64,000 nucleotides of DNA from Bryobacterales bacterium. GTDB taxonomy: Bacteria > Acidobacteriota > Terriglobia > Bryobacterales > Bryobacteraceae. Shown here piece by piece: positions 34,824 through 61,119 of the stretch. The position numbers and the translations under genes are program-made. Position 1 is the stretch's first letter; every line of letters begins with the position of its first letter. Location of the stretch: NCBI GenBank assembly GCA_963769205.1, contig CAVYKR010000004.1:34592-98591 (forward strand), in the 5' to 3' direction. The notes below the pieces were generated by a model that was given only the letters and a program-made list of their open reading frames with translations, was not told the origin of the DNA and did not search any database.

Positions 34824-37257
<2,434 letters not shown>

Positions 37258-37274
<17 letters not shown>

Positions 37275-38598: not shown

Positions 38599-40470
38599 AT
38601 GGCGATGACAGCGGTTGCGCGATACCTCATCTTTGCGGGGCTCGCCGTGTTTGTTATGCGAGCCGACGTGGACGTCAACGCAACGGAGCCCGACGGGTCG
38701 ACAGCGCTGCATCGGGCCAGTTACCGGGATGATCTGGAAGGCGCCGACCGGCTGATTCGCGCCGGCGCGAACGTGAACGCGGCCAACGATCTCGGCGTGA
38801 CACCGCTCTGGTCGGCCAGTCAAAACGGAAGCGTAGCGATGGTGAAGAGACTGCTGGATGCGGGCGCCAATCCGAACCTGGCGCTGCTGGCCGGCGAGAC
38901 GCCCGTGATGGTGGCCGCACGCTCGGGGTATCCCGACATCGTAGAAATGCTGCTCGCCAAGAAAGCCAACCCCAACGCCCACGGCACACGCGGCCAGACG
39001 GCGCTCATGTGGGCGGTGGCGGAGAAGCACCCCGAAGTAGTGAAGGTGCTGCTCGCACACGGCGTGGACATCCAGGCTCGCTCGGATGTCTGGACCGATG
39101 TGATGGCCGTGCCTCCGCACAGCATTCTGGCCTATAACAAGGCCATTCCGCATGGCGGCGAGACCGCATTGATGTTCGCCGCGCGCGTGGGCGATCTGGA
39201 ATCGGCGAAGCTTCTGGTGGCGGCCGGCGGCAATGTGAACGACGCGGACGCGTGGGGTGTCAGCGCAACAGTGCTGGCGGTTCATGCCGGCTACCGGGAC
39301 TTGGCGCTCTTCCTGCTCGACAAAGGCGCTGACCCGAACCTGGCCGCGGCAGGATTTACAGCACTGCACGAAGCGATCATGCGCCGCGATGAAAAGCTGG
39401 TGACCGCGCTGCTGGATCACGGAGCTGATGCCAACGCTCCGCTGCGCACCTGGACGCCGACACGGCGCTCGTCGAAGGACTACCATTTTGATCCCGCCAT
39501 CGTGGGGGCGACTCCTTTCTGGCTGGCTGCCCGTTTCGTTCAACCCAACGTTATGCGCCTGCTGGTGAAACATGGCGCAGATCCTTTATTCGTTCTACAT
39601 TCCGACTACATCGCAGAGGCCCGCTTGCAACACCGCGTGGAAGCGACGACGGCGGCGATGGCAGCCACCGGCATGGGCGGCGGCACGCCCTGGGTTCAAC
39701 CGGCCCGCTCGGAACGCGAAGCTCTCACGCTGGAAGCTGTGAAGCTGTCGGCCGAGCTGGGCGTCGATCTGAATGCCGCTAACAAGGACGGCCGCACCGC
39801 GCTGGACGCGGCCAAGACGCTGAAATACGACAGCGTGGTTAAGTTTCTAGTCGAAAAGGGCGTGAAATCCGGGCAAGCCCGGTGTTCAGGAAGCCGAACA
39901 GACCTCGCCCAAGTATCCCCCGCCGCCGCAGTAACTCACATCCTGAATCTGCATCAGGATTCCGTCGGGATCGGTGAAATAAAGTTCCGGCGTACCGCCT
40001 TTGGCTCCGCCGCGATTCTCCATCCGCATACTCACGTAGGACACCAGCGGACCGGGCGGCCCGGACGCGTCGCCTCTGGGCTTGATTCCGTAATCGGCCA
40101 GGGCCTTCAGCACTTTGTCAGGGTTGAAGCCCTCCATCGTGAAGCAGCCGTGCGCAATGTTGGAGACGCGCGCTTGCGCGCCATTCACTCCGCCGATAGC
40201 AATGAACTGGCGCTTCGAACCGATCCCGAGCAGAGTCGTCACGCCCTGTTGGGCTTGAACCGGCATGCCGAAGAGGTCCTGATAAAAGGCGACCGAGCGC
40301 TCGCGATTGGAAACGCCCAGGGTGAAGTGGCTGAGATCCTGGAGCGCGATGAGGCCCTTGGTGGGCGCGGGCTCAATCGGCTTACACATGCTGCCGAGCG
40401 GGCCGGCCCCGCCACAATAGGTGACATCTTGAAGCTGAACGTTGATGCCGTCAGGGTCGCCGACATATAG
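38599..40470 (+). CDS. ankyrin-repeat protein; ORF probably over-extended at the 3' end
   Basis: There are about 9 ANK repeats (TALHRAS...GADVNA..) through ~39850. The rest of the ORF is antisense to the well-supported VOC gene 39886-40911 and looks like stop-less GC-rich read-through or a lost stop. Confidence 0.6.
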   Translation: MAMTAVARYLIFAGLAVFVMRADVDVNATEPDGSTALHRASYRDDLEGADRLIRAGANVNAANDLGVTPLWSASQNGSVAMVKRLLDAGANPNLALLAGETPVMVAARSGYPDIVEMLLAKKANPNAHGTRGQTALMWAVAEKHPEVVKVLLAHGVDIQARSDVWTDVMAVPPHSILAYNKAIPHGGETALMFAARVGDLESAKLLVAAGGNVNDADAWGVSATVLAVHAGYRDLALFLLDKGADPNLAAAGFTALHEAIMRRDEKLVTALLDHGADANAPLRTWTPTRRSSKDYHFDPAIVGATPFWLAARFVQPNVMRLLVKHGADPLFVLHSDYIAEARLQHRVEATTAAMAATGMGGGTPWVQPARSEREALTLEAVKLSAELGVDLNAANKDGRTALDAAKTLKYDSVVKFLVEKGVKSGQARCSGSRTDLAQVSPAAAVTHILNLHQDSVGIGEIKFRRTAFGSAAILHPHTHVGHQRTGRPGRVASGLDSVIGQGLQHFVRVEALHREAAVRNVGDARLRAIHSADSNELALRTDPEQSRHALLGLNRHAEEVLIKGDRALAIGNAQGEVAEILERDEALGGRGLNRLTHAAERAGPATIGDILKLNVDAVRVADI

Positions 40471-43268: not shown

Positions 43269-44006
43269 TCAAGCGGTGGCATAAAAATCTCGAGTCTCGG
43301 CACGGTCGCTACGTTCGTGGCGGCGGATGAAGGCCTCGATTTCAGCATTCGAAAAAACGAAGCCATCCTCGGCAGGTAGATAGGGGATGTGATCGGCCTT
43401 GTGCATCTTCAAAATCTTGGCGGCTTTGTGAAGTTGAGCTTCCTCATTGGCGCGGCGCTCGGCTTGGATCTGGCGGAGCTGATTTAGAGTTCGTTCGAAC
43501 TGGCGGGTGAGGCGCTGCCGATAAATGCTGATGTTGGCGAAGGCCCGGTCGTTTTCGCGATAGGTTAAGGCCATGGCGAGGGCGTCTTCGGCCTGGGGAT
43601 GGGTGGCGCGGATGCGGTCGTGGGCTTCGGTGATGCCGAGCGCGAAAAGGTTGGTCTCGACGGCGGAGGCGCGGTTGAGCTGCCAGGAAGTATCGAGGAG
43701 GGACTGGACGAGCTGAGTCTCGACGGCGCCTTTTGGCCGGCATTCATCGAGGAAAGATTGGGAGTGGCGCTGGTAAGCGGAGAGGTCCTCGGTGGGCAGG
43801 ACGATGGTATGGCCAGTTAATCCGTGACGCAAAGCATTCAGCTTGGAGCGCTGTTTACCGGCGTCGGAACGGGGGCCGGTGGATTTTTGGGCATTGGCTT
43901 TATTCACGGCGGCGCGGAGGGTGGCGGCTGCGGGGTCGTGGATATTGGGGCGGAATGCGGCATGGCTGGTTTTTGAATCGGGCATATCGGTTTTTGAAGC
44001 GGGCAT
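43269..44006 (-). CDS. hypothetical protein
   Basis: The start MPASKTDMPDSKTS is preceded by GGAGAAATCGAT. A conserved-looking core runs LNALRHGLTGHTIVLPTEDLSAYQRH. The alternative upstream start at 44417 would add a Pro/Ser-rich low-complexity N-terminus. Confidence 0.5.
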   Translation of the reverse strand: MPASKTDMPDSKTSHAAFRPNIHDPAAATLRAAVNKANAQKSTGPRSDAGKQRSKLNALRHGLTGHTIVLPTEDLSAYQRHSQSFLDECRPKGAVETQLVQSLLDTSWQLNRASAVETNLFALGITEAHDRIRATHPQAEDALAMALTYRENDRAFANISIYRQRLTRQFERTLNQLRQIQAERRANEEAQLHKAAKILKMHKADHIPYLPAEDGFVFSNAEIEAFIRRHERSDRAETRDFYATA

Positions 44007-44012
44007 ATCGAT
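43971..44012. repeat. imperfect tandem 21-nt duplication at the 5' end of hypothetical gene
   Basis: The units are tttttgaatcgggcatatcgg / tttttgaagcgggcatatcga. They encode MPASKTD / MPDSKTS. Confidence 0.7.
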
Positions 44013-44049
44013 TTCTCCTACCTCGGGTTTAGCATGCGGGTTTGGGGCG

Positions 44050-44215
44050 CGGCGGGGCGGAAGCTGGGAAGTTGGTGAGGGGGAAGAGAAGAAAGAGGGT
44101 GAAGTGGTGTGATTGGGTTGAGGGAAGACGGAGAAAGTTGGTGGGGGCGGATGGGGTGGGCTGGGTTGCTGGGGTTGTTTGAAGCCGGTCGGGGGGACCT
44201 TGAGGGGGAGGGCCG
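44050..44215. repeat. about 165-nt polypurine (G/A-rich, C-poor) tract
   Basis: The plus strand is almost devoid of C (gggggaagagaagaaagagggtgaagtgg...gggggagggcc). On the minus strand it is a polypyrimidine stretch just upstream of gene 43269-44006. Confidence 0.6.
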
Positions 44216-44536
44216 TGATGGTGGCACTGCGCTCTTGTGGTTTGCGATGCCCGGTCCCTAGCGCGTTTCCCGTTAGGAGATTCAGCTGTTTGATTCTTTC
44301 CCAGGACCGGCGTGAACACACCTGGGACAGTGTTTCCGAAATTGGCAGACCCTCGGCGAGACCTCGCTCCAAAAGCATTCCCAACCTACTTGACGTGCGC
44401 CCCGTCGGCCGCCGCACCCGGTGTTGCCGGATGGTGTTGCCGATAGGTCAACGCCCCGCCGAAACACGCCGGGCCGGCGCTAGCCAATCGTAACCGCCCC
44501 TCTCAAGGTCGGCGTGGAGATTCTGTGTTGAACCGA

Positions 44537-45482
44537 TTAATTCAGCTTCAGAGTGAGGCCGAGAACCAACGTGTTGCCCTTTAAGAGGTTCGTCACCTCG
44601 AATTCATTCACCCAGCGGAGTTGAACAATCACGCCGGGCTTCTCTAATTTCGCAACGTAAAGCACGATCGGGCCGACGCCCCAGGCCCGGCCTTCGAAGC
44701 CATGCAGTACACTGGCTACGGGTCCCGTATCGTTTGTGATCTGTGTGAGGTTGGAACCGATCGCACCGAACCCGACCCTCTTGGAAAAATATCGTATGAC
44801 CATGCCATCCCAATGAAACATGGTGCCACTGGTGTACTTGGTGGTGAGATTCTGGCTATAGATATCAAAGCCCACGAAATTGTCGAATTCAAGGCCGCGC
44901 TTCTCCCACAGGTAGGTGTGCGCGACATTCGGCATGATGGTCCACTCGCCCATGCCCAGGTTCGAAAGGTTGCCCGGCCTGAATTGTCCAGTCGGGGCGA
45001 AGATCAAGGTACTGATTGCAAGATTATTGCTGTCGCTGAAATGTATACCGGCCGTTAGCGGCACAATAACAACGTCGCCGATGCCAGCATTTGAAGAGCT
45101 CGTGCTTCGCGAGAAGTTATTAAACTGGAGGGAACCGTTGGAGCCTACCCAATTGACAACTCCCATAAACGACGACGCGAAGCTCACCTTTGGAGTCTCA
45201 GTCTTGTAAACGTACTGGGGCACCAGGTAGTTGCTGTTGATGTTGGCATCGACGTTTGTAAAGATCGAGCCCCCGATTGGAACTAGGCGGCTTCCCCCGA
45301 TAGTAACCGATAGGCATCATGGTGAAGCTAAACCCCGCCGCCGGCCCTACCACGGCGCCCTGAGGCTGTATCCAAACGCCTGGCAGAGTTCGGCCGAGGC
45401 CGCCCTCGACAGCCACAGCCGGCACAGCGGCTACAGCAAGTGCGATTCCGCTGAGCACATGTCTCATTATATTGACCATCAC
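44537..45482 (-). CDS. outer-membrane beta-barrel protein of the MetA-pathway/phenol-degradation-like transporter family; N-terminus frameshifted
   Basis: The signal peptide is in ORF 45198-45482 (MMVNIMRHVLSGIALAVAAVPAVA) and the barrel body in 44537-45223. GC is lower than the flanks. Confidence 0.5.
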
Positions 45483-46242
45483 TACTCTGAACCCTTTTTG
45501 CAGCAGATTTCGGACATCCCCGCCGAATGATTTCCACGACAGAGCGTTGACGTAGTTTTTTCGCGGCCGTTGTCGTGAAGGAGCCGGCTCGGGAATAGCC
45601 TAAAAATAGTCCAGAGACGGTCCGGCTACATCAATTAAACACAGGTTAGGAAGTCTACGATGAACCGTCTAACGAATTTTCTGTGGCTGGCAGTCCTACA
45701 ACCTGACTCAGGTTATTGAACAGGTCAAGAAAGCCCAAACGGCGAGTCACGCGGGCGCCTAGCTGAAAACGCGAATGTAAGAGACTCCATGCGGCTGAAC
45801 GTAGGAGGCGAGAAGGTGGAGGGAAGTCAGTCTCCCATTGCGTTTATCTCTGCTTTGGTGGCATTTGGCAACTGCACCGGTCACGCAGCGGGCGTCTTTC
45901 AAAGTCGGTTCAACCGCCCGGAGACTGAATTAGAAGTCTCGGAATGCTGTTGTTCTTGTGTGTTTTTCATTCATCGGAACCTTGCGAAAATTGTACTCAA
46001 TGCTGAACGCTGGTCCATAGAATAAAGTTAAGGTAGATCCGCTGCCCGAGTTCCGAAAGAAAGAGATGAGAGGACGGCCGTTGATCCGGCATTCTCTTTG
46101 CCATCTGTGCGGTCGGATGTACCGGTCGGCATCCGAAAAGTCCACGTACTTATAGATTCCTCGGCCGAGGCAAATAGTGAGGTCCTGCATTTAAAGAAGA
46201 GCCCAGAACCAGCCTTCCGGCATCGGGCCTTATAGGAAAGAC

Positions 46243-46355
46243 AAAGAGGTATGGACATGAGAGTATGGCCCTTTCTCGCGTTTTTAGTAGCGGTGTTGCT
46301 CGGCTCGAGCGGCATCGCCAGCGCGCAGGACAAGCCTTTGCTTTGCAACCAGCAA
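46243..46355. repeat. copy 1 of duplicated RBS + signal-peptide leader
   Basis: The sequence runs aagaggtatggacatgagagtatgg...ggctcgagcggcatcgccagcgcgcaggacaagcctttgctttgcaaccagcaa. Confidence 0.7.
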
Positions 46356-46838
46356 TTTGCACTCTGCACGAGCGCCCGGTGCATCCCGGAGCCCGGCAAT
46401 CCGAAGGTGGCGCTCTGTACCTGCGATGTGTGGAACGGCAAGGGTATGACGGGGTTTGTTGCGTCGTGCGATGCCGTCAAGCCGAGCACCGACGCCAATG
46501 GCTGGCGCACCGTTTATTCCTATTTCGCGCTCACGCAATCCTATCAGGGCAAACGCTTGATGAAATGCTCGGCTAATACGCCGTGGGCGGAGTGCCTCAA
46601 CGCGAAGTGCACTGTCGACCCTGCCGATCCGTCAAAAGCAATCTGTGCCTGCGAAACTAAGTTCCAAACCGGCGAATGGGTCACGTGGGCGGGCAATTGC
46701 AACACGCAGAGTTGCAGTAAGGGCTTTTTGAACGGCACTACTGTCGTTGAAGTGACTCCGGGGATCGATTTCTTGGTGAAGGAGCTCGACCTGAAGAAGT
46801 CCCCGGTCAAATCGTGCAGTCCGGCCGACGCTCGGTAA
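46251..46838 (+). CDS. secreted Cys-rich protein (16 Cys) of unknown function
   Basis: It has a signal peptide (MDMRVWPFLAFLVAVLLGSSGIASA) and repeated C..C spacing (CNQQFALCTSARC...CTC...C). There is an RBS-like GGAAAGACAAAGAGG upstream. Confidence 0.6.
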   Translation: MDMRVWPFLAFLVAVLLGSSGIASAQDKPLLCNQQFALCTSARCIPEPGNPKVALCTCDVWNGKGMTGFVASCDAVKPSTDANGWRTVYSYFALTQSYQGKRLMKCSANTPWAECLNAKCTVDPADPSKAICACETKFQTGEWVTWAGNCNTQSCSKGFLNGTTVVEVTPGIDFLVKELDLKKSPVKSCSPADAR

Positions 46839-47186
46839 AACGTCGTAGCGTCGTAGTATTTACTCGCACCATTGCAGTCAGCAGTCCGCGAGCTTCTCTT
46901 CGGAGCCGAAGAGAACCCTCCGGGATCGGGTCGGAAGATCGAGCGTGAGAGGGAGGGGCGCAATCCGCCTTTGCGCTTACGGCTCCCGTCATGGGAGGTG
47001 TCAATCTTGCCAGTTTCGGAAGCTAAGCGGTGTTCTTAAGATTAGCCAGGACCATCCCAAATTTCTGGTAACGAGAAAAGGAACTTTCACATGAGTGACC
47101 GAGACAAGATGCGGGATCAAAGGTCCGGAAATGTAGGTCTCTTGACCCCGCTCTTTTGCTTCTGATAATTCACTTATCGGGACGAC

Positions 47187-47324
47187 AAGGAGGATGGACA
47201 TGAGATTATGGCTTTTTTCGCGTCCCTAATAGCAGTACTGCTTGGCGGCCTGTTTTTTGAGATATCGTATCTCGGCTCGAGCCGCATCGTCAGCGCGCAG
47301 GACAAGCTGCTTTGCGACCAGCAA
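47187..47324. repeat. copy 2 of duplicated leader, fused to arylsulfatase gene (about 24-nt insertion, original ATG frame now hits TAA)
   Basis: The sequence runs aaggaggatggacatgagattatgg...ggctcgagccgcatcgtcagcgcgcaggacaagctgctttgcgaccagcaa. It is ~80% identical to copy 1. Confidence 0.7.
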
Positions 47325-49655
47325 TCGGATCGAACTGTTCTGCCGCCGCCCGAGTGCCCGTTCAAGGGCAACATTGAGACCGCCATGAAGAACTCAACGC
47401 AGGACTGGCCGCAGCCGCTCAAGGCCCCGGAAGGTGCTCCCAACGTCCTCATGATCATTGGCGACGACATCGGCTTCGGCACTCCGAGCGCATTCGGCGG
47501 CCCGGTGAATACGCCGGTTTTCGATCGGATCGCGAAGGAAGGATTGCGCTACACCGATTTTCATACGACCGCCGTTTGCGCCGCGTCGCGGGCTGCTTTC
47601 CTCACGGGGCGCAACGCCCACTCCGTGGGCTTTGGCTTCATCCCGGATGGCGCTGTCGGATTCCCGGGTTATAACTGCATGCTCCCGCCCAGCGCAGCAA
47701 GCGTGCTCGAAATCCTGCGCATGAACGGTTACGGCACCGCCTGGATCGGCAAGGCCGACAACACCCCCGTCTGCGAAGCCACCCCGGCTGGCCCGTTTGA
47801 TCGGTGGCCGACCAGAGGAGCAGAGTATTTTTATGGCTTCTTCGGAGCGGGAGTTACCCAATACTACACTCCGCTTTGGCGCAACCACACGCCGGTAAGG
47901 CCGCCTAGAACGCCGGAAGAAGGCTATATCTTCGACGACGACATGGCCAACGAGGCGATCGGCTGGATTCAGCGGCAAAAATCAACCCATCCCGACAAGC
48001 CGTGGATCATGTATTACGCCCCGTCTTCGGCCAAGCCGCCGGTCGCCTCGCCAAAGGAGTTCAGCGACAGATACCGCGGCAAATTCGATGACGGGTATGA
48101 CAAGCTACGCGAGCGCATCGTGGCGCGGCAGCTGAAAATGGGGATTGTGCCCCCCGGCACGAAACCTGCGCCGGGACCCGACACCATACCAGCTTGGGAC
48201 AAGCTCAGCGACATCGACAAGAAGGTTGGCACCCGCATGATGGAAGTCTTCAGCGGCGCGGTCGAGCACATTGATTTCCAGATCGGGCGCGTCATCAAAG
48301 CGATTGATCAATTGGGTGACTTGGACAACACGCTAATCATCTACGTCATTGGCGACAACGGCCCGACTCCCGAAGGCGGTATGCACGGCGTGATGAACAA
48401 GCTGACCTACGCCAACGGCGTCCCGGAGTCGCTTGACGAGGTCGCGAAACATCTGGACGAATTCGGCGGCCCGAACTCCATGGGCGGCATTCCTGCTGCC
48501 TGGGCCTTCGCCACAAGCGGTCCATACAACTATGGCAAAATGGTGACCTCGGGGGGCGGTTGCAGCACCGCAATTGCGGTTTCCTGGCCGGCGCGCATCA
48601 AGGACAAGGGCGCTATGCGCCGGCAGTTCACCCATCTCATTGACATCGTCCCGACCATCCTGGAAGCCGCCGGTGTGCCCGCGCCGAAGGTTGTCAATGG
48701 TGTCGTCCAGAAACCGATGGAAGGCGTAAGCATGACCTACACGTTCGACGATGCACAGGCGATGGACCGTCACACGACTCAGTACTTCGAGCTTACCGGC
48801 TCGCGTGCCATCTACCGCGACCGCTGGTGGGCTGGCACACGGCATGGCCTGGACGGCACAACCGTGATACAAGCCAAGCCGATCGTACCTTTCGACGAGG
48901 ACATCTGGGAGCTCTCCGATCGGAGGAGCGATTTCAGCCTCGCCACCAACCTCGCGGCCAAGTATCCGGAAAAGCTCAAGGAACTGCAGGCGCTCTTCAA
49001 GGAAGAGGCACGCAAATACAACGTCTATCCGATGGCTAACAACGGTATTGAAATGTATGAGACCGGCACGCGGCCGAGGCTTGTCGCCGGCAATAAGGCA
49101 ACCTATGGCCCGGGCACTATCCGGCTCCCGGAGGAAGGAGTCATCGACATCAAGAACCGGTCGTTCTCCATTATTGCCGAGGTCGAAAACCCGGACGGCA
49201 AAGCCGAAGGCATGATCGTGACCGAGGGCGGGATGACCGGCGGCTACGCGCTCTTGGTTCAGAATGGCAAGCCAACCTTCATCTACAACTGGCTCGCGTA
49301 TGAGCGTTACACGATCGCCTCTCCCGATCCACTGCCGAAAGGCAAGAGCACGATTCGGCTGGACTTCGCTTACGACGGCGGCGGCTTGGGCAAGGGCGGC
49401 GTGGCCACGCTCTCCGTCAACGACAGGAAGGTGGCCGAAGGGCGCGTCGCTCACACAGTGCCAATTCTCTTCTCGTTTGGCGACACATTTGATGTGGGCG
49501 AGGACTGGTGCACACCGGTGTCGCCAACCTACAAGGTGCCGTTCAAGTTCACGGGAAACATCAAGTCGGTGACGATCGAAGCCAAGCAGGGAAATCTGAG
49601 TGTAGAGGATGTGAACAACCTCCATGAAATGCGCCTCGCTGGCGCACACGACTAG
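47208..49655 (+). CDS. arylsulfatase (formylglycine-dependent sulfatase) with long C-terminal extension
   Basis: It has a sulfatase signature with CxAxR (TAVCAASRAAFLTGRNAHSVGFG) and metal-binding DD residues (MIIGDDIGFG). It is 815 aa, versus ~500 for a typical arylsulfatase. Confidence 0.8.
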   Translation: MAFFASLIAVLLGGLFFEISYLGSSRIVSAQDKLLCDQQSDRTVLPPPECPFKGNIETAMKNSTQDWPQPLKAPEGAPNVLMIIGDDIGFGTPSAFGGPVNTPVFDRIAKEGLRYTDFHTTAVCAASRAAFLTGRNAHSVGFGFIPDGAVGFPGYNCMLPPSAASVLEILRMNGYGTAWIGKADNTPVCEATPAGPFDRWPTRGAEYFYGFFGAGVTQYYTPLWRNHTPVRPPRTPEEGYIFDDDMANEAIGWIQRQKSTHPDKPWIMYYAPSSAKPPVASPKEFSDRYRGKFDDGYDKLRERIVARQLKMGIVPPGTKPAPGPDTIPAWDKLSDIDKKVGTRMMEVFSGAVEHIDFQIGRVIKAIDQLGDLDNTLIIYVIGDNGPTPEGGMHGVMNKLTYANGVPESLDEVAKHLDEFGGPNSMGGIPAAWAFATSGPYNYGKMVTSGGGCSTAIAVSWPARIKDKGAMRRQFTHLIDIVPTILEAAGVPAPKVVNGVVQKPMEGVSMTYTFDDAQAMDRHTTQYFELTGSRAIYRDRWWAGTRHGLDGTTVIQAKPIVPFDEDIWELSDRRSDFSLATNLAAKYPEKLKELQALFKEEARKYNVYPMANNGIEMYETGTRPRLVAGNKATYGPGTIRLPEEGVIDIKNRSFSIIAEVENPDGKAEGMIVTEGGMTGGYALLVQNGKPTFIYNWLAYERYTIASPDPLPKGKSTIRLDFAYDGGGLGKGGVATLSVNDRKVAEGRVAHTVPILFSFGDTFDVGEDWCTPVSPTYKVPFKFTGNIKSVTIEAKQGNLSVEDVNNLHEMRLAGAHD

Positions 49656-49724
49656 CCAACGAGGATGTCATTGCGCTTATTGCGATTGCGATCAAAGCAA
49701 ACTAGCTCGGAAGCTTTTCACGAG

Positions 49725-49752
49725 GTGCAGGTCATTTGCGAGCGACCTGCAC
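49725..49752 (+). terminator. perfect 9-bp stem hairpin downstream of arylsulfatase (possible terminator or regulatory hairpin)
   Basis: The hairpin is gtgcaggtc-(10 nt)-gacctgcac. It lies 70 nt after the stop. No U-tract follows, so it is weak as an intrinsic terminator. Confidence 0.3.
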
Positions 49753-50422
49753 TTCACATCCCAAAGTTTCGCGTGACGATAACCCGCAGTCCGAACGCGT
49801 GCAAGGAGGCGCCCCCGGTATGTATCCGCTGCGCACGGGCATGATCCTGCCGCAGCTCCCTGGCAGCCCGTCGTACTTGAGACCCGGCACCCGAGCCGCC
49901 GAGCCCTTCATAATGACATTGTCCCGAGGTGAACTGACCGTGGAAGGCCAAATTCGGACGCAAAAAGGCGATCCGCGGCTGGAACCGCGCATTCCAGTCG
50001 TTCTCGCTGAGAGGCTTGGTCGCGAAAGATCCGGGGTTGCTCGGCTGGATAGGTACCGGCATGTCGGCTTGCGTCATCTAATCGCGACACCGGTCACTGG
50101 GCTGAGTAAAGGCCAAGCAGTGGAAGTGGTGCCATAAGTAGGGGATTAGCCGATCAAATGCCGCTCTCTTCAGACGAGAAACTCGCCCGCTGCGAACGAT
50201 CCGACGCAAGTGTTGGTGTTGGCGGATATCAGCTGGCTCGGCCAGAACGGCCAAATCTTAAGGTTTTGGTTTACGTCGGTTTCGAGGCTCAGCTTTGCTT
50301 TTCTTGGCGGCCACAACCGGTACGGAGGGGCGCGCGGTGGTCTTCTTCGCCGCCGTGGCCCTCTTTTGCTTCTTGTCAAACGTCAGTTTCCCGGGCTTCA
50401 CACCGGCCCCGCCCGCTAGCCT

Positions 50423-50668
50423 CTAGTTGATATCGTCCGCGCCCATCTGGGCAACGCGGTCGGCGGTCCATTCAGCGTCCTGAAGCGTTGATTGCCGCTT
50501 AAGATCTTCTTGAGTAACCGGTTTCGCCCATCTGGCGGCGGCGGCGGTCTTGGCGACTGCCACGCGTTGCTCTGGCGTGAGCTTTTCCATCCGGGCCTTG
50601 CCGCTGGCTTTCCCTCCCTTGCGGCCGATCCCAGCCAAGTATTTCGATACCGTCGTCTTACGAGCCAT
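50423..50668 (-). CDS. small basic protein (KGG-like motif); same frame continues past a TAG into a Lys/Ala-rich tail to 50258
   Basis: It starts MARKTTVSKYLAGIGRKGGKASGKARMEKLTPEQR... After the TAG at 50423-50425 the same frame reads RLAGGAGVKPGKLTFDKKQKRATAAKKTTARPSVPVVAAKKSKAEPRNRRKPKP*. Confidence 0.4.
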   Translation of the reverse strand: MARKTTVSKYLAGIGRKGGKASGKARMEKLTPEQRVAVAKTAAAARWAKPVTQEDLKRQSTLQDAEWTADRVAQMGADDIN

Positions 50669-60006: not shown

Positions 60007-61119
60007 ATGAGCGACGGCGAGCCTCAGGCTTTTTTCTCATACAGCCGCAGCGACTCACCTTTCGTCACTCGCTTGGCGGCCGACCTTAAGGCAGCCGGCG
60101 TCAGCGCCTGGCTGGATACGCGAGACATCGCACCGGGACACGAGTGGGACCGAGCGATCGAAGCCGCCCTCGCCAAAATCCCTCGCATGATTTTGATTCT
60201 GTCGCCGGCTTCGGCGGCGTCTCGAAACGTACGTGATGAAATCTCGTTCGCAATCGATTCCGGCAAAGAAATATATCCGGTGCTGTACGGAACTTGTGAA
60301 TTGCCTCTTCAGGTTCGCCGGCTGCAGTATGTGGATTTTCGCGACGACTACGAAGCCGGCCGCGCCACTCTGATAGCGAAACTGACCGGCGCCGGCGCGC
60401 CGACCCGCGAATCGCCTGTCGCGGTTCGCCGCCGCTGGCCGTTTGTGGCCGCCGCTCTCAGCCTCTTAGCCATCGCTGTGCTGTTCTGGGTACTGCGGCC
60501 AAAGCCGGTTGTTCGACAATCGGCCAGGTTGCTCGAGTCCACAGAAGTGCAGTCTTCGAGCACGGCGCCTGGGACCGCCGAAGCCGGCCTGCGGCTCGAA
60601 ATTCAGAATATGAAGCAGGCAACGCCGATCCTTGCGCCGAATCAGCCTCGCTGGAACGGCGAGCCGATCTGGTGCGAGACTGCTGTTTTTGACTTATTGG
60701 TCGCGCATAATCGCGCTGCCCCCGATGCGCTACTGGTTAACGATCTGGGTATCCGCACAGAAGCAGTTGCCGCCAAGCCTCCGGATCCTGTCGATTGTTC
60801 CATTGACACGCTCAACAGCAAACCCTTTGGCATCGTGGTGGTCAATCAATACTCATTCGATCTTTCGGCTGCCGGATTGTCGGGCCGCTTCATCAAATCG
60901 GGCCGCGTGGGAGACGCAAGCCCTGTAAATCCCGACAGCCTGCTTCAGGTGGGCGGCGAAAAACTTGCCATCACGCTTCAGCCGAACGAAACGGCTACGC
61001 CTTTCAACATCTCAGTTCATACCCGCGCGCCAGGCTTGTATCGCGTCTGGTTCACCGCGGCCTATGACGAATCCGGCCCTCGCAGAGCCAAATCTCAATC
61101 CTTCCTGCTCGCAAAGTGA
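60007..61119 (+). CDS. TIR-domain membrane protein: cytoplasmic N-terminal TIR (TIR_2-like), one TM helix, about 205-aa extracytoplasmic C-terminal domain
   Basis: The TIR region reads FFSYSRSDSPFVTRLAADLKAAGVSAWLDTRDIAPGHEWDRAIEAALAKIPRMILILSPASAASRNVRDEISFA...IYPVL. The TM helix is WPFVAAALSLLAIAVLFWVL. The C-terminal domain is beta-rich and matches nothing I recognise. Confidence 0.8.
   Translation: MSDGEPQAFFSYSRSDSPFVTRLAADLKAAGVSAWLDTRDIAPGHEWDRAIEAALAKIPRMILILSPASAASRNVRDEISFAIDSGKEIYPVLYGTCELPLQVRRLQYVDFRDDYEAGRATLIAKLTGAGAPTRESPVAVRRRWPFVAAALSLLAIAVLFWVLRPKPVVRQSARLLESTEVQSSSTAPGTAEAGLRLEIQNMKQATPILAPNQPRWNGEPIWCETAVFDLLVAHNRAAPDALLVNDLGIRTEAVAAKPPDPVDCSIDTLNSKPFGIVVVNQYSFDLSAAGLSGRFIKSGRVGDASPVNPDSLLQVGGEKLAITLQPNETATPFNISVHTRAPGLYRVWFTAAYDESGPRRAKSQSFLLAK

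What the first reader, a model, noticed from the sequence alone, without database searches (positions are those of the whole stretch)
46243..47324. Arylsulfatase has acquired the ribosome-binding site, signal peptide and first mature residues of the neighbouring Cys-rich gene by a local duplication
About 110-140 nt at 47187-47324 is an ~80% identical copy of 46243-46355. The copy runs from the RBS (aagaggtATGgacATGaga vs aaggaggATGgacATGaga) through the signal peptide to AQDK(P)LLC(N/D)QQ. In copy 2 the original ATG frame runs into TAA after 10 codons. The sulfatase is read from an ATG 14 nt downstream in the +1 frame, and a 24-nt insertion restores a hydrophobic core. This looks like fresh evolution of a secretion leader by segmental duplication. 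The two genes probably share expression signals.
Basis: seen in the sequence. Interest (0 to 1): 0.55.

Follow-up and report, generated by a model that had tools for sequence, protein, structure and literature searches.

The report
Sulfatase captured a neighbour's secretion leader
A normally cytoplasmic-type sulfatase gene gained a ribosome-binding site, start codon and secretion signal when the front end of a Cys-rich secreted-protein gene was copied into its 10th codon, and the old start codon still sits as a fossil just upstream.

Summary
The repeat is real. Window 46229-46356 and 47173-47325 are direct copies, 82-90% identical. Their local alignment score is 118, against 20 +/- 2.5 for shuffles.

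The nearest sulfatase orthologues (90-95% identical) have no leader and start MSDRDIQNQPDRTV. The window keeps that old start (MSDRDKMRDQ, 47091-47120) as a relic just upstream of copy 2. The enzyme body resumes at the next ancestral residue (SDRTV, 47325).

So a copy of the Cys-rich gene's 5' region was inserted at codon 10/11, with a CAAT microhomology at the right junction. The copy carried upstream DNA with a promoter-like site, the 5' UTR, the SD, the signal peptide and 10 mature residues.

The event is not fresh. The same junction occurs in 10 independent contigs.

Three details are wrong or secondary:
- The frame break and downstream ATG come from a 1-nt deletion found only in this window.
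- The extra hydrophobic stretch is a 30-nt insertion shared by all long-leader relatives. It is not a repair.
- The present neighbour is only probably the donor.

All fused enzymes also gained a Cys 13 residues after the leader's Cys. A related sulfatase seems to have captured the same leader independently.

The parts
46229..46356 (+). Repeat copy 1. It covers the 5' UTR of the Cys-rich gene, the SD (46244-46249), ATGs at 46251 and 46257, the signal peptide (to ASA|Q, 46325|46326) and the first 10 mature codons, ending CAGCAA|T.
   Evidence: The SD is 7 nt from ATG 46257 and 1 nt from ATG 46251, and relatives are called from MRVWP.
46257..46838 (+). Cys-rich secreted protein gene (193 aa from the SD-spaced ATG; the ORF's first ATG is 46251). 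The mature protein has 14 Cys. It has no Pfam or NCBIfam family.
46894..46915 (+). 10-bp hairpin (TTCTCTTCGG-AG-CCGAAGAGAA) downstream of the Cys-rich gene, with no U-tract. It lies within a 31-nt stretch (from about 46892) that is absent in L007.
   Evidence: no canonical terminator on the + strand between the two genes
47052..47090 (+). Ancestral upstream region of the sulfatase. It is homologous to the DNA just before the start of leaderless orthologues.
   Evidence: window 47052-47106 matches L005, L016 and L017 at 76-82% across their MSDRD start codons
47091..47120 (+). Relic of the ancestral sulfatase start, ATGAGTGACCGAGACAAGATGCGGGATCAA = MSDRDKMRDQ. It now runs into unrelated sequence and stops at TGA 47163-47165.
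   Evidence: Compare the leaderless orthologues MSDRDIQNQPDRTV and MNDQDLMRQDQRDRTI. The same relic is in L002, L007 (ATG>CTG), L009, L011 (ATG>GTG) and L012, and is mostly deleted in L013.
47118..47123 (+). Scar of a window-specific deletion of about 117 nt. The segment X, present in L002, L007, L009, L012 and L013, is missing here.
47121..47172 (+). Captured upstream DNA (U'). It contains a sigma-70-like site, TTGACC (47142-47147), 16 nt, GATAAT (47164-47169).
   Evidence: 10 of 12 matches. It is homologous at 84% to the region upstream of the Cys-rich gene in L005, 2440-2515.
47173..47325 (+). Repeat copy 2. It covers the 5' UTR, SD GGAGG (47189-47193), ATGs at 47194, 47200 and 47208, the signal-peptide coding region, and AQDKLLCDQQ.
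47200..47229 (+). Short dead-end ORF (MRLWLFSRP*) read from the SD-spaced ATG. It was created by the window-specific frameshift.
   Evidence: SD spacing is 6 nt to ATG 47200 and 14 nt to ATG 47208
47212..47219 (+). Site of the 1-nt deletion. The window has CTTTTTTC; L011 and L012 have CTTTGTTTC, L007 has CTTGGTTTC and L002 has CTTTTTTTG.
47241..47270 (+). 30-nt insertion in the leader (LGGLFFEISY). It is shared by all long-leader sulfatases and by one mosaic Cys-rich gene (L004).
47322..47325 (+). Right junction, a CAAT microhomology. The Cys-rich gene reads CAGCAA|TTT; the ancestral sulfatase read GATCAA|TCG.
   Evidence: junction identical in all 10 fused contigs
47313..47315 (+). Cys36 codon, the first Cys of the Cys-rich protein, brought in with the leader.
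47355..47357 (+). Cys50 codon (PPPE-C-PF). It is Cys in all fused enzymes and Ser, Thr, Ala or Gly in all 12 orthologues compared that lack this junction.
   Evidence: alignment column 9
47208..49655 (+). Sulfatase ORF as it stands in the window (815 aa). It has an S1-type sulfatase domain, with the formylglycine motif C-A-A-S-R at 47577-47591.

Best explanation
The sulfatase at 47208-49655 descends from a leaderless, cytoplasmic-type arylsulfatase whose protein began MSDRDKMQDQ-SDRTVLPPPE.

In an ancestor shared with at least nine other metagenomic contigs, about 320 nt was copied from the front of a Cys-rich secreted-protein gene. The copied segment comprised:
- about 195 nt of upstream DNA, including a promoter-like TTGACC-16-GATAAT site
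- the 5' UTR and the Shine-Dalgarno sequence
- the start codon and a Sec-type signal peptide
- the first 10 mature codons

It was inserted between codons 10 and 11 of the sulfatase. The right junction lies in a 4-nt microhomology (CAAT).

Translation then started at the captured SD and ATG. The product was a sulfatase with a cleavable-looking signal peptide (..VSA|QDK), so export to the periplasm or outside is inferred. The old promoter-proximal region and start codon were left upstream as a decaying relic.

Later steps:
- A Ser-to-Cys change 13 residues after the imported Cys is found in every fused enzyme examined. It is inferred to be a disulfide partner.
- A 30-nt insertion lengthened the leader in one subclade.
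- Lineage-specific deletions eroded the relic and the captured upstream DNA.
- The shared leader served as a homology tract for 5'-end swapping and gene conversion with Cys-rich genes.

The window's own copy carries two private lesions. One is a 117-nt deletion at 47120/47121. The other is a 1-nt deletion that puts the SD-spaced ATG out of frame. The long ORF now begins at ATG 47208, which lies 14 nt from the SD and encodes no charged n-region, so expression and export in this strain are probably impaired.

Shown: the homology, the junctions, the relic, the leaderless orthologues, and the distribution across contigs.
Inferred: export, the disulfide, promoter activity, and the molecular mechanism of the insertion.
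For: 1. The repeat is significant and occurs only twice in the window.

2. Within one 90%-identity protein cluster, leaderless 785-aa enzymes (MSDRDIQNQPDRTVLPPPE[S/T]PF) coexist with 810-820-aa enzymes carrying the Cys-rich leader. Further leaderless relatives exist at 81-86% identity. Leaderless N-termini show no hydrophobic segment: the maximum 12-aa Kyte-Doolittle mean is -0.41, against 2.3-2.9 in the fused forms.

3. The relic start MSDRDKMRDQ at 47091-47120 has upstream DNA homologous to that of leaderless orthologues. The relic ends exactly one residue before the enzyme body resumes (SDRTV). That is the expected result of a single-point insertion.

4. The relic decays differently in each lineage: ATG>CTG in L007, ATG>GTG in L011, mostly deleted in L013, and intact with its SD in L009.

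5. The junction CAGCAA|TCGGATCGA is identical in all 10 fused contigs, which come from NCBI, JGI and Logan assemblies.

6. The captured upstream DNA matches the region upstream of the Cys-rich gene in L005 at 84-86%. There the leaderless sulfatase and the Cys-rich gene are divergent neighbours.

7. The leader plus the mature N-terminus xLCxQQFALCTSAPC is conserved across the Cys-rich family, so that family is the donor.

8. Cys50 is present in 6 of 6 aligned fused proteins and 0 of 12 orthologues without this junction.

9. The window's 1-nt gap is unique among seven long-leader loci, and it is the only indel in the gene.
Against: - Export was not tested and no signal-peptide predictor was available. 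The long leader has an unusually long c-region containing Glu and Arg (..FFEISYLGSSRIVSA).
- The DNA upstream of copy 1 (46081-46228) is not homologous to the captured upstream DNA. So the present neighbour cannot be shown to be the physical donor.
- Gene order differs among relatives: divergent in L005, sulfatase then Cys-rich gene in L015, and Cys-rich gene then sulfatase here. The ancestral arrangement is therefore unresolved.
- The promoter-like site is not kept in all lineages. Its -35 is deleted in L011, and the site is altered in L009 and L013.
- The 1-nt deletion could be an assembly error.
Confidence: 0.85

Rival explanations
1. The outcome is the same but the route is different. A tandem duplication of about 1.1 kb ran from upstream of the Cys-rich gene to sulfatase codon 10. 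An internal deletion then removed the second Cys-rich body and the second copy of the sulfatase start, leaving leader fused to enzyme.
For: The two copies are direct repeats 943-972 nt apart, and the Cys-rich gene lies between them. The CAAT microhomology could equally have mediated a deletion.
Against: The deletion would have to end exactly at the nucleotide where the duplication ended, because relic end and body start are contiguous codons. That is an unforced coincidence. The model also predicts that copy 1 is preceded by the same X-U DNA as copy 2. It is not, in the window, L002, L007 or L009.
Confidence: 0.15
2. The donor was not the gene now next door. It was another Cys-rich gene copy or allele, possibly incoming DNA from a related strain. 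The present tandem adjacency would then be secondary.
For: - DNA upstream of copy 2 matches the Cys-rich upstream region of L005, not the DNA upstream of copy 1.
- The two-gene module sits in unrelated flanks in the window, L002, L007 and L009. Homology starts at 46081, 46229 or 46251 and ends at 49657-49711.
- Fused genes carry at least four different 5' ends, each resembling a different Cys-rich gene.
- Recombinant alleles exist: the P0252 enzyme and the L004 leader.
Against: In window-type genomes both copies share a derived 5' UTR (CTTATxGG...AAGGAGGATGGAC, which creates the extra upstream ATG). Other Cys-rich genes have GGATCGAC instead. Cys-rich genes and these sulfatases are neighbours in four different arrangements, so a local donor was available.
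Confidence: 0.3
3. The frame break at 47212-47219 is a sequencing or assembly error. The real gene in this organism would read in frame from ATG 47200, as in its relatives.
For: It is a single-base difference that creates a T6 run. Everything else in the 2.45-kb gene is free of indels and stops relative to four relatives.
Against: - The missing base is a G inside CTTTGTTTC, so this is not a change in the length of an existing homopolymer.
- The same window has other private lesions nearby that are not error-like: an 8-nt deletion splitting the Phenol_MetA_deg gene (intact in L012), a 117-nt deletion, and a weakened SD of the Cys-rich gene.
Confidence: 0.3
4. The direction is reversed. The fused form would be ancestral, and the leaderless enzymes arose by precise deletion of the leader.
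For: Signal-peptide losses outnumber gains among bacterial orthologues (PMC5952966).
Against: Leaderless N-termini homologous to the relic occur in outgroups at 79-86% identity (P0122-P0124, P0126), whereas the LLCDQQ|SDRTV junction is confined to the 90% cluster of P0121. A deletion would also have to recreate an upstream in-frame start that matches those outgroups.
Confidence: 0.03
5. The similarity is due to chance, to convergence of signal peptides, or to a chimeric assembly.
For: None found.
Against: The alignment score is far above every shuffle. Identity extends into non-coding 5' UTR and synonymous sites. The same architecture appears in independent assemblies from four sources.
Confidence: 0.01

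Closest known systems
Signal-peptide gain by insertion of a whole leader among bacterial orthologues (Honigschmid et al., Genome Biol Evol 2018, PMC5952966)
   Same: Close orthologues differ by the presence or absence of a complete N-terminal signal peptide, with the rest of the protein conserved. That paper counted 34 such gains in Enterobacterales.
   Different: The paper did not identify a source for the inserted leaders, and its test for transposable elements was negative. Here several things are visible that the paper does not report:
- the donor gene family
- both junctions, with a 4-nt microhomology at the right one
- the captured upstream DNA and SD
- a relic of the old start
Promoter capture by local duplication, such as the rnk-citT module of the E. 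coli long-term evolution experiment (from my own knowledge, not checked here)
   Same: A short local duplication places a gene behind a neighbour's expression signals.
   Different: Here the captured piece also includes the start codon, the signal peptide and 10 mature residues. It therefore rewrites the protein's N-terminus and probably its location, not only its transcription.
Protein subcellular relocalization after N-terminal change, described mainly in eukaryotes (for example PMC7456531 and PMC12501140, listed)
   Same: An enzyme gains a targeting sequence and is sent to a new compartment.
   Different: This is a bacterial Sec-type leader. It was acquired by in-situ insertion into a single-copy gene, not after duplication of the whole gene.
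Pseudomonas aeruginosa arylsulfatase AtsA (PDB 1HDH)
   Same: It is the closest solved structure by sequence (E = 1e-53 over residues 77-544). Both are formylglycine-type S1 sulfatases. From my own knowledge, AtsA is a leaderless cytoplasmic enzyme, like the unfused orthologues here.
   Different: The window enzyme is about 280 residues longer at the C-terminus, has C-A-A-S-R instead of C-x-P-x-R, and carries the captured leader.

Membership tests
S1 (formylglycine-dependent) sulfatase | Sulfatase catalytic domain (Pfam PF00884) | tested here: met
   E = 6.7e-44 over residues 78-490, covering the full profile. PDB arylsulfatases match at E = 1e-53.
S1 (formylglycine-dependent) sulfatase | C/S-x-P/A-x-R formylglycine motif near the start of the domain | tested here: met
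   C-A-A-S-R at residues 124-128, with the context TTAVCAASRAAFLTGR. This is the Ala variant of the motif.
S1 (formylglycine-dependent) sulfatase | A maturation enzyme (FGE or anSME) is available | tested here: inconclusive
   tblastn with the FGE C-terminal fragment encoded in L015 finds nothing in the 64-kb window. FGE lies directly upstream of the fused sulfatase in L014 and L015. The rest of the genome was not seen.
Sec-type (signal peptidase I) signal peptide | Positively charged n-region | tested here: not met
   The window ORF starts MAFFASLIAV with no Lys or Arg before the hydrophobic core. The feature is met in relatives (MRVW..., MDMRLW...) and in the Cys-rich gene (MRVWPF).
Sec-type (signal peptidase I) signal peptide | Hydrophobic h-region of about 10-15 residues | tested here: met
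   The maximum 12-residue Kyte-Doolittle mean is 2.68 for the window sulfatase and 2.63 for the Cys-rich protein, against -0.41 for a leaderless orthologue.
Sec-type (signal peptidase I) signal peptide | Small residues at -3 and -1 (AxA-like site) | tested here: met
   ASA|QDK in the Cys-rich protein and VSA|QDK in the sulfatase. In the long leader the c-region is about 13 residues, which is longer than usual.
Sec-type (signal peptidase I) signal peptide | Actual export and cleavage | not testable with these tools
   No SignalP-type predictor and no experiment was available.
Signal-peptide gain by whole-leader insertion | Close orthologues lack the leader while the mature part is conserved | tested here: met
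   785-aa leaderless members and 810-820-aa fused members share one 90% cluster, and their bodies are 87-96% identical.
Signal-peptide gain by whole-leader insertion | Polarity is gain rather than loss | tested here: met
   The relic start lies upstream. Outgroups at 79-86% identity are leaderless with a homologous N-terminus.
Local segmental duplication with the neighbour as donor | The two copies are direct, close together, and each other's closest relatives | tested here: inconclusive
   The copies are direct and 943-972 nt apart, and they share a derived 5' UTR. But the DNA upstream of copy 2 matches the Cys-rich gene of L005, not the DNA upstream of copy 1.
Transposable element or MITE insertion | Terminal inverted repeats, a target-site duplication, or a transposase | tested here: not met
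   The repeat search reports no inverted repeat flanking the insert. Only CAA is repeated at both ends, and it is native to both parent genes. No Rfam family matches.

The most novel reading that the evidence does not exclude
The captured leader may be more than a one-off fusion. It could act as a portable homology tract through which unrelated genes (Cys-rich genes and sulfatases) repeatedly exchange promoters, 5' UTRs and N-termini.

Support for repeated exchange:
- Four different 5' ends are attached to one invariant junction.
- One Cys-rich gene (L004) has a mosaic, converted leader.
- One sulfatase allele (P0252) is recombinant.

The Cys-rich gene would also be a recurrent leader donor. 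A second sulfatase lineage (the P0125 type, seen in L018) appears to have captured its SD and first ~12 codons independently, at a different junction.

In addition, the exported enzyme may have adapted through a new Cys that pairs with the imported orphan Cys.
Probability: 0.35. Interest if true: 0.65.

Novelty: new variant of a known kind. Interest (0 to 1): 0.55.

Why it matters
Orthologous bacterial proteins are known to gain and lose signal peptides. For gains by insertion of a whole leader, the source of the leader was not identified (PMC5952966).

This locus shows one complete route at nucleotide resolution:
- a donor gene family
- a microhomology junction
- capture of upstream DNA, SD, start codon and signal peptide in a single piece
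- a fossil of the old start
- follow-up changes: a candidate compensatory Cys, leader lengthening, decay of the relic, and recombination through the shared leader

It gives a concrete, testable natural example of how a cytoplasmic-type enzyme can be sent outside the cell in one mutational step. It also offers natural leader variants (short, long, N-extended, and truncated as in this window) that could be compared experimentally.

For annotation, the sulfatase start in this window is atypical, and the gene may be impaired in this strain.

Tried and rejected
- **Other copies in the window:** none found.
- **RNA families:** Rfam scan of 45000-50500 at E <= 1 gave no match, so a shared riboswitch or leader RNA is not supported.
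- **Identity of the Cys-rich protein:** no Pfam or NCBIfam family. PDB sequence hits were only at E >= 0.2. An AlphaFold model built on a 40-sequence alignment failed (mean pLDDT 36, pTM 0.23), so I ran no fold search.
- **Taxonomy and complete-genome context:** the junction pattern and the Cys-rich protein both found nothing in the GTDB species representatives. The gene content resembles genomes I know from Acidobacteriota or Planctomycetota: CarboxypepD_reg-type outer-membrane proteins, PSD/PSCyt proteins and kumamolisin. I did not test this.
- **Deriving the gene order by one inversion:** I tried to derive the window's order from the divergent arrangement in L005 by a single inversion or by circle excision and reintegration. 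No single event reproduces the + orientation of the relic directly upstream of the captured DNA. I rejected these by reasoning.
- **Origin of the spacer:** I asked whether the spacer between the Cys-rich gene and the relic is the reverse complement of the captured upstream DNA. BLAST found no match.
- **Transposable-element origin:** rejected. There are no terminal repeats and no transposase in the module. Transposase or integrase genes occur only in the flanks of some relatives, L002 and L017.
- **Frameshift rescue:** I considered programmed frameshifting or transcriptional slippage at the T6 run as a rescue of the window's frame break. The sequence is not a canonical X_XXY_YYZ heptamer, and I did not pursue it.
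Full report
**1. The observation**

The window holds a 195-aa ORF for a Cys-rich protein (46251-46838). An 815-aa sulfatase ORF (47208-49655) lies 370 nt downstream on the same strand.

Window 46229-46356 and 47173-47325 are direct copies (coordinates checked).
- Ungapped blocks are 95% identical over 37 nt, 94% over 18 nt and 81% over 31 nt.
- Identity over ungapped columns is 82% with MAFFT and 90% with a gap-permissive alignment.
- The local alignment score is 118, against 20 +/- 2.5 (maximum 37) for dinucleotide shuffles.
- There are only these two copies in the window.

The copy covers about 22 nt of 5' UTR, the SD, ATGGACATGAGA, the signal peptide and AQDK(P)LLC(N/D)QQ.

Copy 2 has a 1-nt deletion, a 30-nt insertion (47241-47270) and a 3-nt deletion. 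In copy 2 the SD-proximal ATGs (47194, 47200) run into TAA at 47227-47229, and the long ORF starts at ATG 47208. The one correction is that the insertion is 30 nt, not 24.

**2. Which gene is the recipient**

The sulfatase is an S1 formylglycine-type enzyme. It matches PF00884 at E = 7e-44 and carries the motif C-A-A-S-R at residues 124-128. Its nearest solved relative is P. aeruginosa arylsulfatase 1HDH.

Its nearest relatives in the 5.8-billion-protein set form one 90%-identity cluster of 95 members. That cluster contains two classes:
- 785-aa proteins that begin MSDRDIQNQPDRTVLPPPE[S/T]PF and have no hydrophobic N-terminus
- 810-820-aa proteins that begin with the Cys-rich leader joined as ...LLCDQQ|SDRTVLPPPECPF

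More distant relatives at 81-86% identity (P0122-P0124) are also leaderless, with a homologous N-terminus such as MNDQDLMRQDQRDRTILPPPE.

By contrast, the leader plus the mature N-terminus xLCxQQFALCTSAPC is conserved throughout the Cys-rich family down to 50% identity. The sulfatase is therefore the recipient.

**3. The relic**

Thirty nucleotides at 47091-47120 read ATGAGTGACCGAGACAAGATGCGGGATCAA, which is MSDRDKMRDQ. The DNA before them is homologous to the DNA upstream of the start codon of leaderless orthologues.

After the relic comes DNA unrelated to the sulfatase, and then copy 2. The enzyme resumes at 47325 with SDRTVLPPPE.

Relic plus body reconstruct an ancestral N-terminus, MSDRDKM(R/Q)DQ-SDRTV. 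It aligns with the leaderless relatives with no residue lost or duplicated. So the foreign segment was inserted at a single point, between codons 10 and 11.

The right junction lies in a CAAT shared by both parents. The Cys-rich gene has CAGCAA|TTT, and the ancestral sulfatase had GATCAA|TCG.

The relic is present in relatives and decays differently in each:
- intact with its SD in L009
- ATG>CTG in L007
- ATG>GTG in L011
- mostly deleted in L013

That pattern is what a non-functional remnant should show.

**4. What was inserted**

Relatives L002, L007, L009, L012 and L013 carry 196 nt between the relic and the captured start codon. I call these X plus U'.
- Positions 66-170 of this stretch match, at 86%, the region upstream of the Cys-rich gene in L005. 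There a leaderless sulfatase and the Cys-rich gene are divergent neighbours.
- The window has lost the first 117 nt of it. The scar is at 47120/47121.
- L011 has a different, larger deletion.
- The retained part contains a sigma-70-like site, TTGACC-16-GATAAT, at 47142-47169. The site is also present in L005. It reads TTGACC-16-AATAAT in L002 and L007, is altered in L009 and L013, and has lost its -35 in L011.

Homology between copy 1 and copy 2 begins just after the -10 element. The captured piece was therefore about 320 nt: upstream DNA with a candidate promoter, 5' UTR, SD, start, signal peptide and 10 mature codons. Promoter activity is inferred, not shown.

**5. Age and spread**

A scan of metagenome contigs for the junction found five more loci. 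With those from protein look-ups, ten distinct contigs carry the identical junction: the window, L002/L003, L007/L008, L009 and L010-L015. They come from NCBI, JGI and Logan assemblies.

Their enzymes are 91-98% identical. In every genome that holds both genes, the two leader copies are 76-84% identical, except L015, whose N-extended leader aligns only over its 3' part. The event therefore predates these lineages. It is not fresh.

**6. The window's private changes**

Of seven long-leader loci, only the window has the 1-nt gap. L011 and L012 read CTTTGTTTCGCG where the window reads CTTTTTTCGCG. This is the only indel in the whole 2.45-kb gene relative to L002, L007, L009 and L012.

Relatives are in frame from the SD-spaced ATG, for example MRVWLFLASLVAVLLGGLFFEISHLGSSRIVSA|QDK.

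In the window the SD (GGAGG, 47189-47193) is 6 nt from ATG 47200, which now gives a 9-residue dead end. It is 14 nt from ATG 47208, whose product MAFFASLIAV... has no charged n-region. Expression and export are thus probably reduced in this strain, unless the deletion is an assembly error.

Three other private lesions nearby argue that it is real:
- an 8-nt deletion that splits the Phenol_MetA_deg gene, which is intact at 316 aa in L012
- the 117-nt deletion
- a weakened SD of the Cys-rich gene (AAGGAGG to AAAGAGGT)

The 30-nt insertion is shared by all long-leader relatives, whose frames are intact. It cannot be a repair of the frameshift.

**7. Follow-up evolution**

All six aligned fused proteins have Cys at PPPE-C-PF, residue 50 in the window. 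All twelve orthologues without this junction have Ser, Thr, Ala or Gly there. The four other fused loci that I read as DNA also have TGC at that position.

The imported segment brings one Cys (residue 36), which is the first of 14 in the Cys-rich protein. A new partner 13 residues downstream is a plausible adaptation to an oxidising compartment. This is inference only.

Short-leader fused genes (L010, L014, L015) keep the same junction but have Cys-rich-type leaders and unrelated upstream DNA.
- In L014 and L015 a formylglycine-generating-enzyme gene lies directly upstream.
- The L015 leader carries an N-terminal extension also found on the Cys-rich gene of L018.

One Cys-rich gene (L004) has a mosaic leader with a sulfatase-type middle. 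One sulfatase (P0252) is a recombinant of fused and leaderless alleles.

Together these indicate recombination and gene conversion through the shared leader.

**8. A probable second capture**

In L018 a Cys-rich gene is followed, 110 nt later, by a sulfatase of the P0125 type, which is 81% identical to the window enzyme.

Its SD and first ~12 codons (GGAGGATCGACATGAGAAAATGGCCCTTTCT) match Cys-rich leaders at 84-88% over 43-45 nt. But it joins the enzyme at a different point (..PAPDQP|DRTV) and lacks LLCDQQ.

Leaderless lineages lie between the two clades in identity. This looks like an independent event, but a proper phylogeny was not made.

**9. Mechanism and rivals**

A single duplicative insertion best fits the exact contiguity of relic end and body start. 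It could have arisen by two template switches during replication, or by capture of a fragment at a break.

Tandem duplication followed by deletion needs a coincidence of end points, and it predicts X-U DNA upstream of copy 1, which is absent.

Whether the present neighbour was the donor is open.
- For: the shared derived 5' UTR.
- Against: the differing upstream DNA, and the fact that the two-gene module sits in unrelated flanks in the window, L002, L007 and L009.

Reverse polarity, chance and assembly artefact are excluded by sections 1-5.

**10. Comparison with what is known**

Gains of whole signal peptides among Enterobacterales orthologues have been counted: 34 events, with no source identified and a negative test for transposable elements (PMC5952966).

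This locus is a case of that kind in which the donor, the junctions, the captured upstream DNA and SD, and a relic start are all visible. It resembles promoter capture by local duplication, but it also rewrites the N-terminus.

I rate it a new variant of a known kind, of moderate interest.

Noticed in passing
L018:889-1000 (contig Ga0599165_0370958): A second sulfatase lineage (P0125 type, 81% identical to the window enzyme) lies 110 nt downstream of a Cys-rich gene. It starts with an SD and about 12 codons that match the Cys-rich leader. It joins the enzyme at a different point (..PAPDQP|DRTV). This is probably an independent capture of the same leader.
   Followed up: partly
window 44537-45482 (- strand): The Phenol_MetA_deg-family outer-membrane gene is split into 228-aa and 94-aa ORFs by an 8-nt deletion at about 45304, relative to L012, where the gene is an intact 316-aa ORF. 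It is probably a pseudogene in this strain. The same neighbourhood holds the other private lesions (SD change at 46245-46250, 117-nt deletion at 47120/47121, 1-nt deletion at about 47215).
   Followed up: partly
window 47577-47591: The formylglycine motif is C-A-A-S-R (Ala in place of the usual Pro). The Cys is conserved in all 18 relatives compared.
   Followed up: no
L015:5692-6103 and L014:1297-1377: A formylglycine-generating-enzyme gene ends directly upstream of the short-leader fused sulfatase. In L015 (a 410-kb contig) the order is FGE, fused sulfatase, 113 nt, Cys-rich gene. tblastn with that FGE fragment finds nothing in the 64-kb window.
   Followed up: partly
L005:50-3249: A leaderless sulfatase and a Cys-rich gene are divergent neighbours sharing about 280 nt of intergenic DNA. 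On this nanopore contig the sulfatase is broken into several small called genes, probably by read errors. Cys-rich genes and these sulfatases are adjacent in four different arrangements overall, which suggests a functional link.
   Followed up: partly
window 46257-46838 and homologues P0001-P0120: The Cys-rich protein belongs to an uncharacterised secreted family with 217 hits, 14 conserved Cys and the motif LCxQQFALCTSAPCIPEPGNPK. It has no Pfam, NCBIfam or PDB relative, and AlphaFold2 with 40 sequences gave pLDDT 36.
   Followed up: partly
L004:556-740: The leader of this Cys-rich gene is a mosaic. Its ends are Cys-rich-type, and its middle carries the sulfatase-type 24-30-nt insertion and the GAGCCGCATCGTC variant. 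That looks like gene conversion from a sulfatase leader. It also has a 12-nt internal duplication (AQAKPQDKP).
   Followed up: partly
protein P0252 (NCBI HJY47206.1, labelled Stellaceae bacterium MAG): This fused sulfatase has a first half closest to the short-leader fused P0245 and a second half closest to the leaderless P0247 (1-3 differences per 100 residues, against 6-15). It is a recombinant between fused and leaderless alleles.
   Followed up: partly
L009:7532-7663: A second Cys-rich gene start (92% identical to the window's copy 1) lies downstream of the fused sulfatase and a BON-domain gene. This contig therefore holds three copies of the leader.
   Followed up: no
window 46081 and 49657-49711; L002, L007, L009: The two-gene module is 94-99% identical between contigs, but the flanks are unrelated. 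L002 has a phage-type integrase and Fic, L007 has toxin-antitoxin genes and DUF7933, and L009 has a CoA-transferase. The left limit of homology to L007 falls exactly at the start of the repeat (46229). The module may be mobile or may sit in a variable island.
   Followed up: partly
window 46894-46915: A 10-bp perfect hairpin without a U-tract lies between the two genes. It falls within a 31-nt stretch that is absent in L007.
   Followed up: no
window 34824-37274, 38599-40470, 60007-61119, 43269-44417: Other genes in the window include a PSCyt/PSD multi-domain protein (planctomycete-type cytochrome), a 623-aa ankyrin-repeat protein, a TIR-domain protein and a 382-aa proline-rich ORF with no family.
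   Followed up: no
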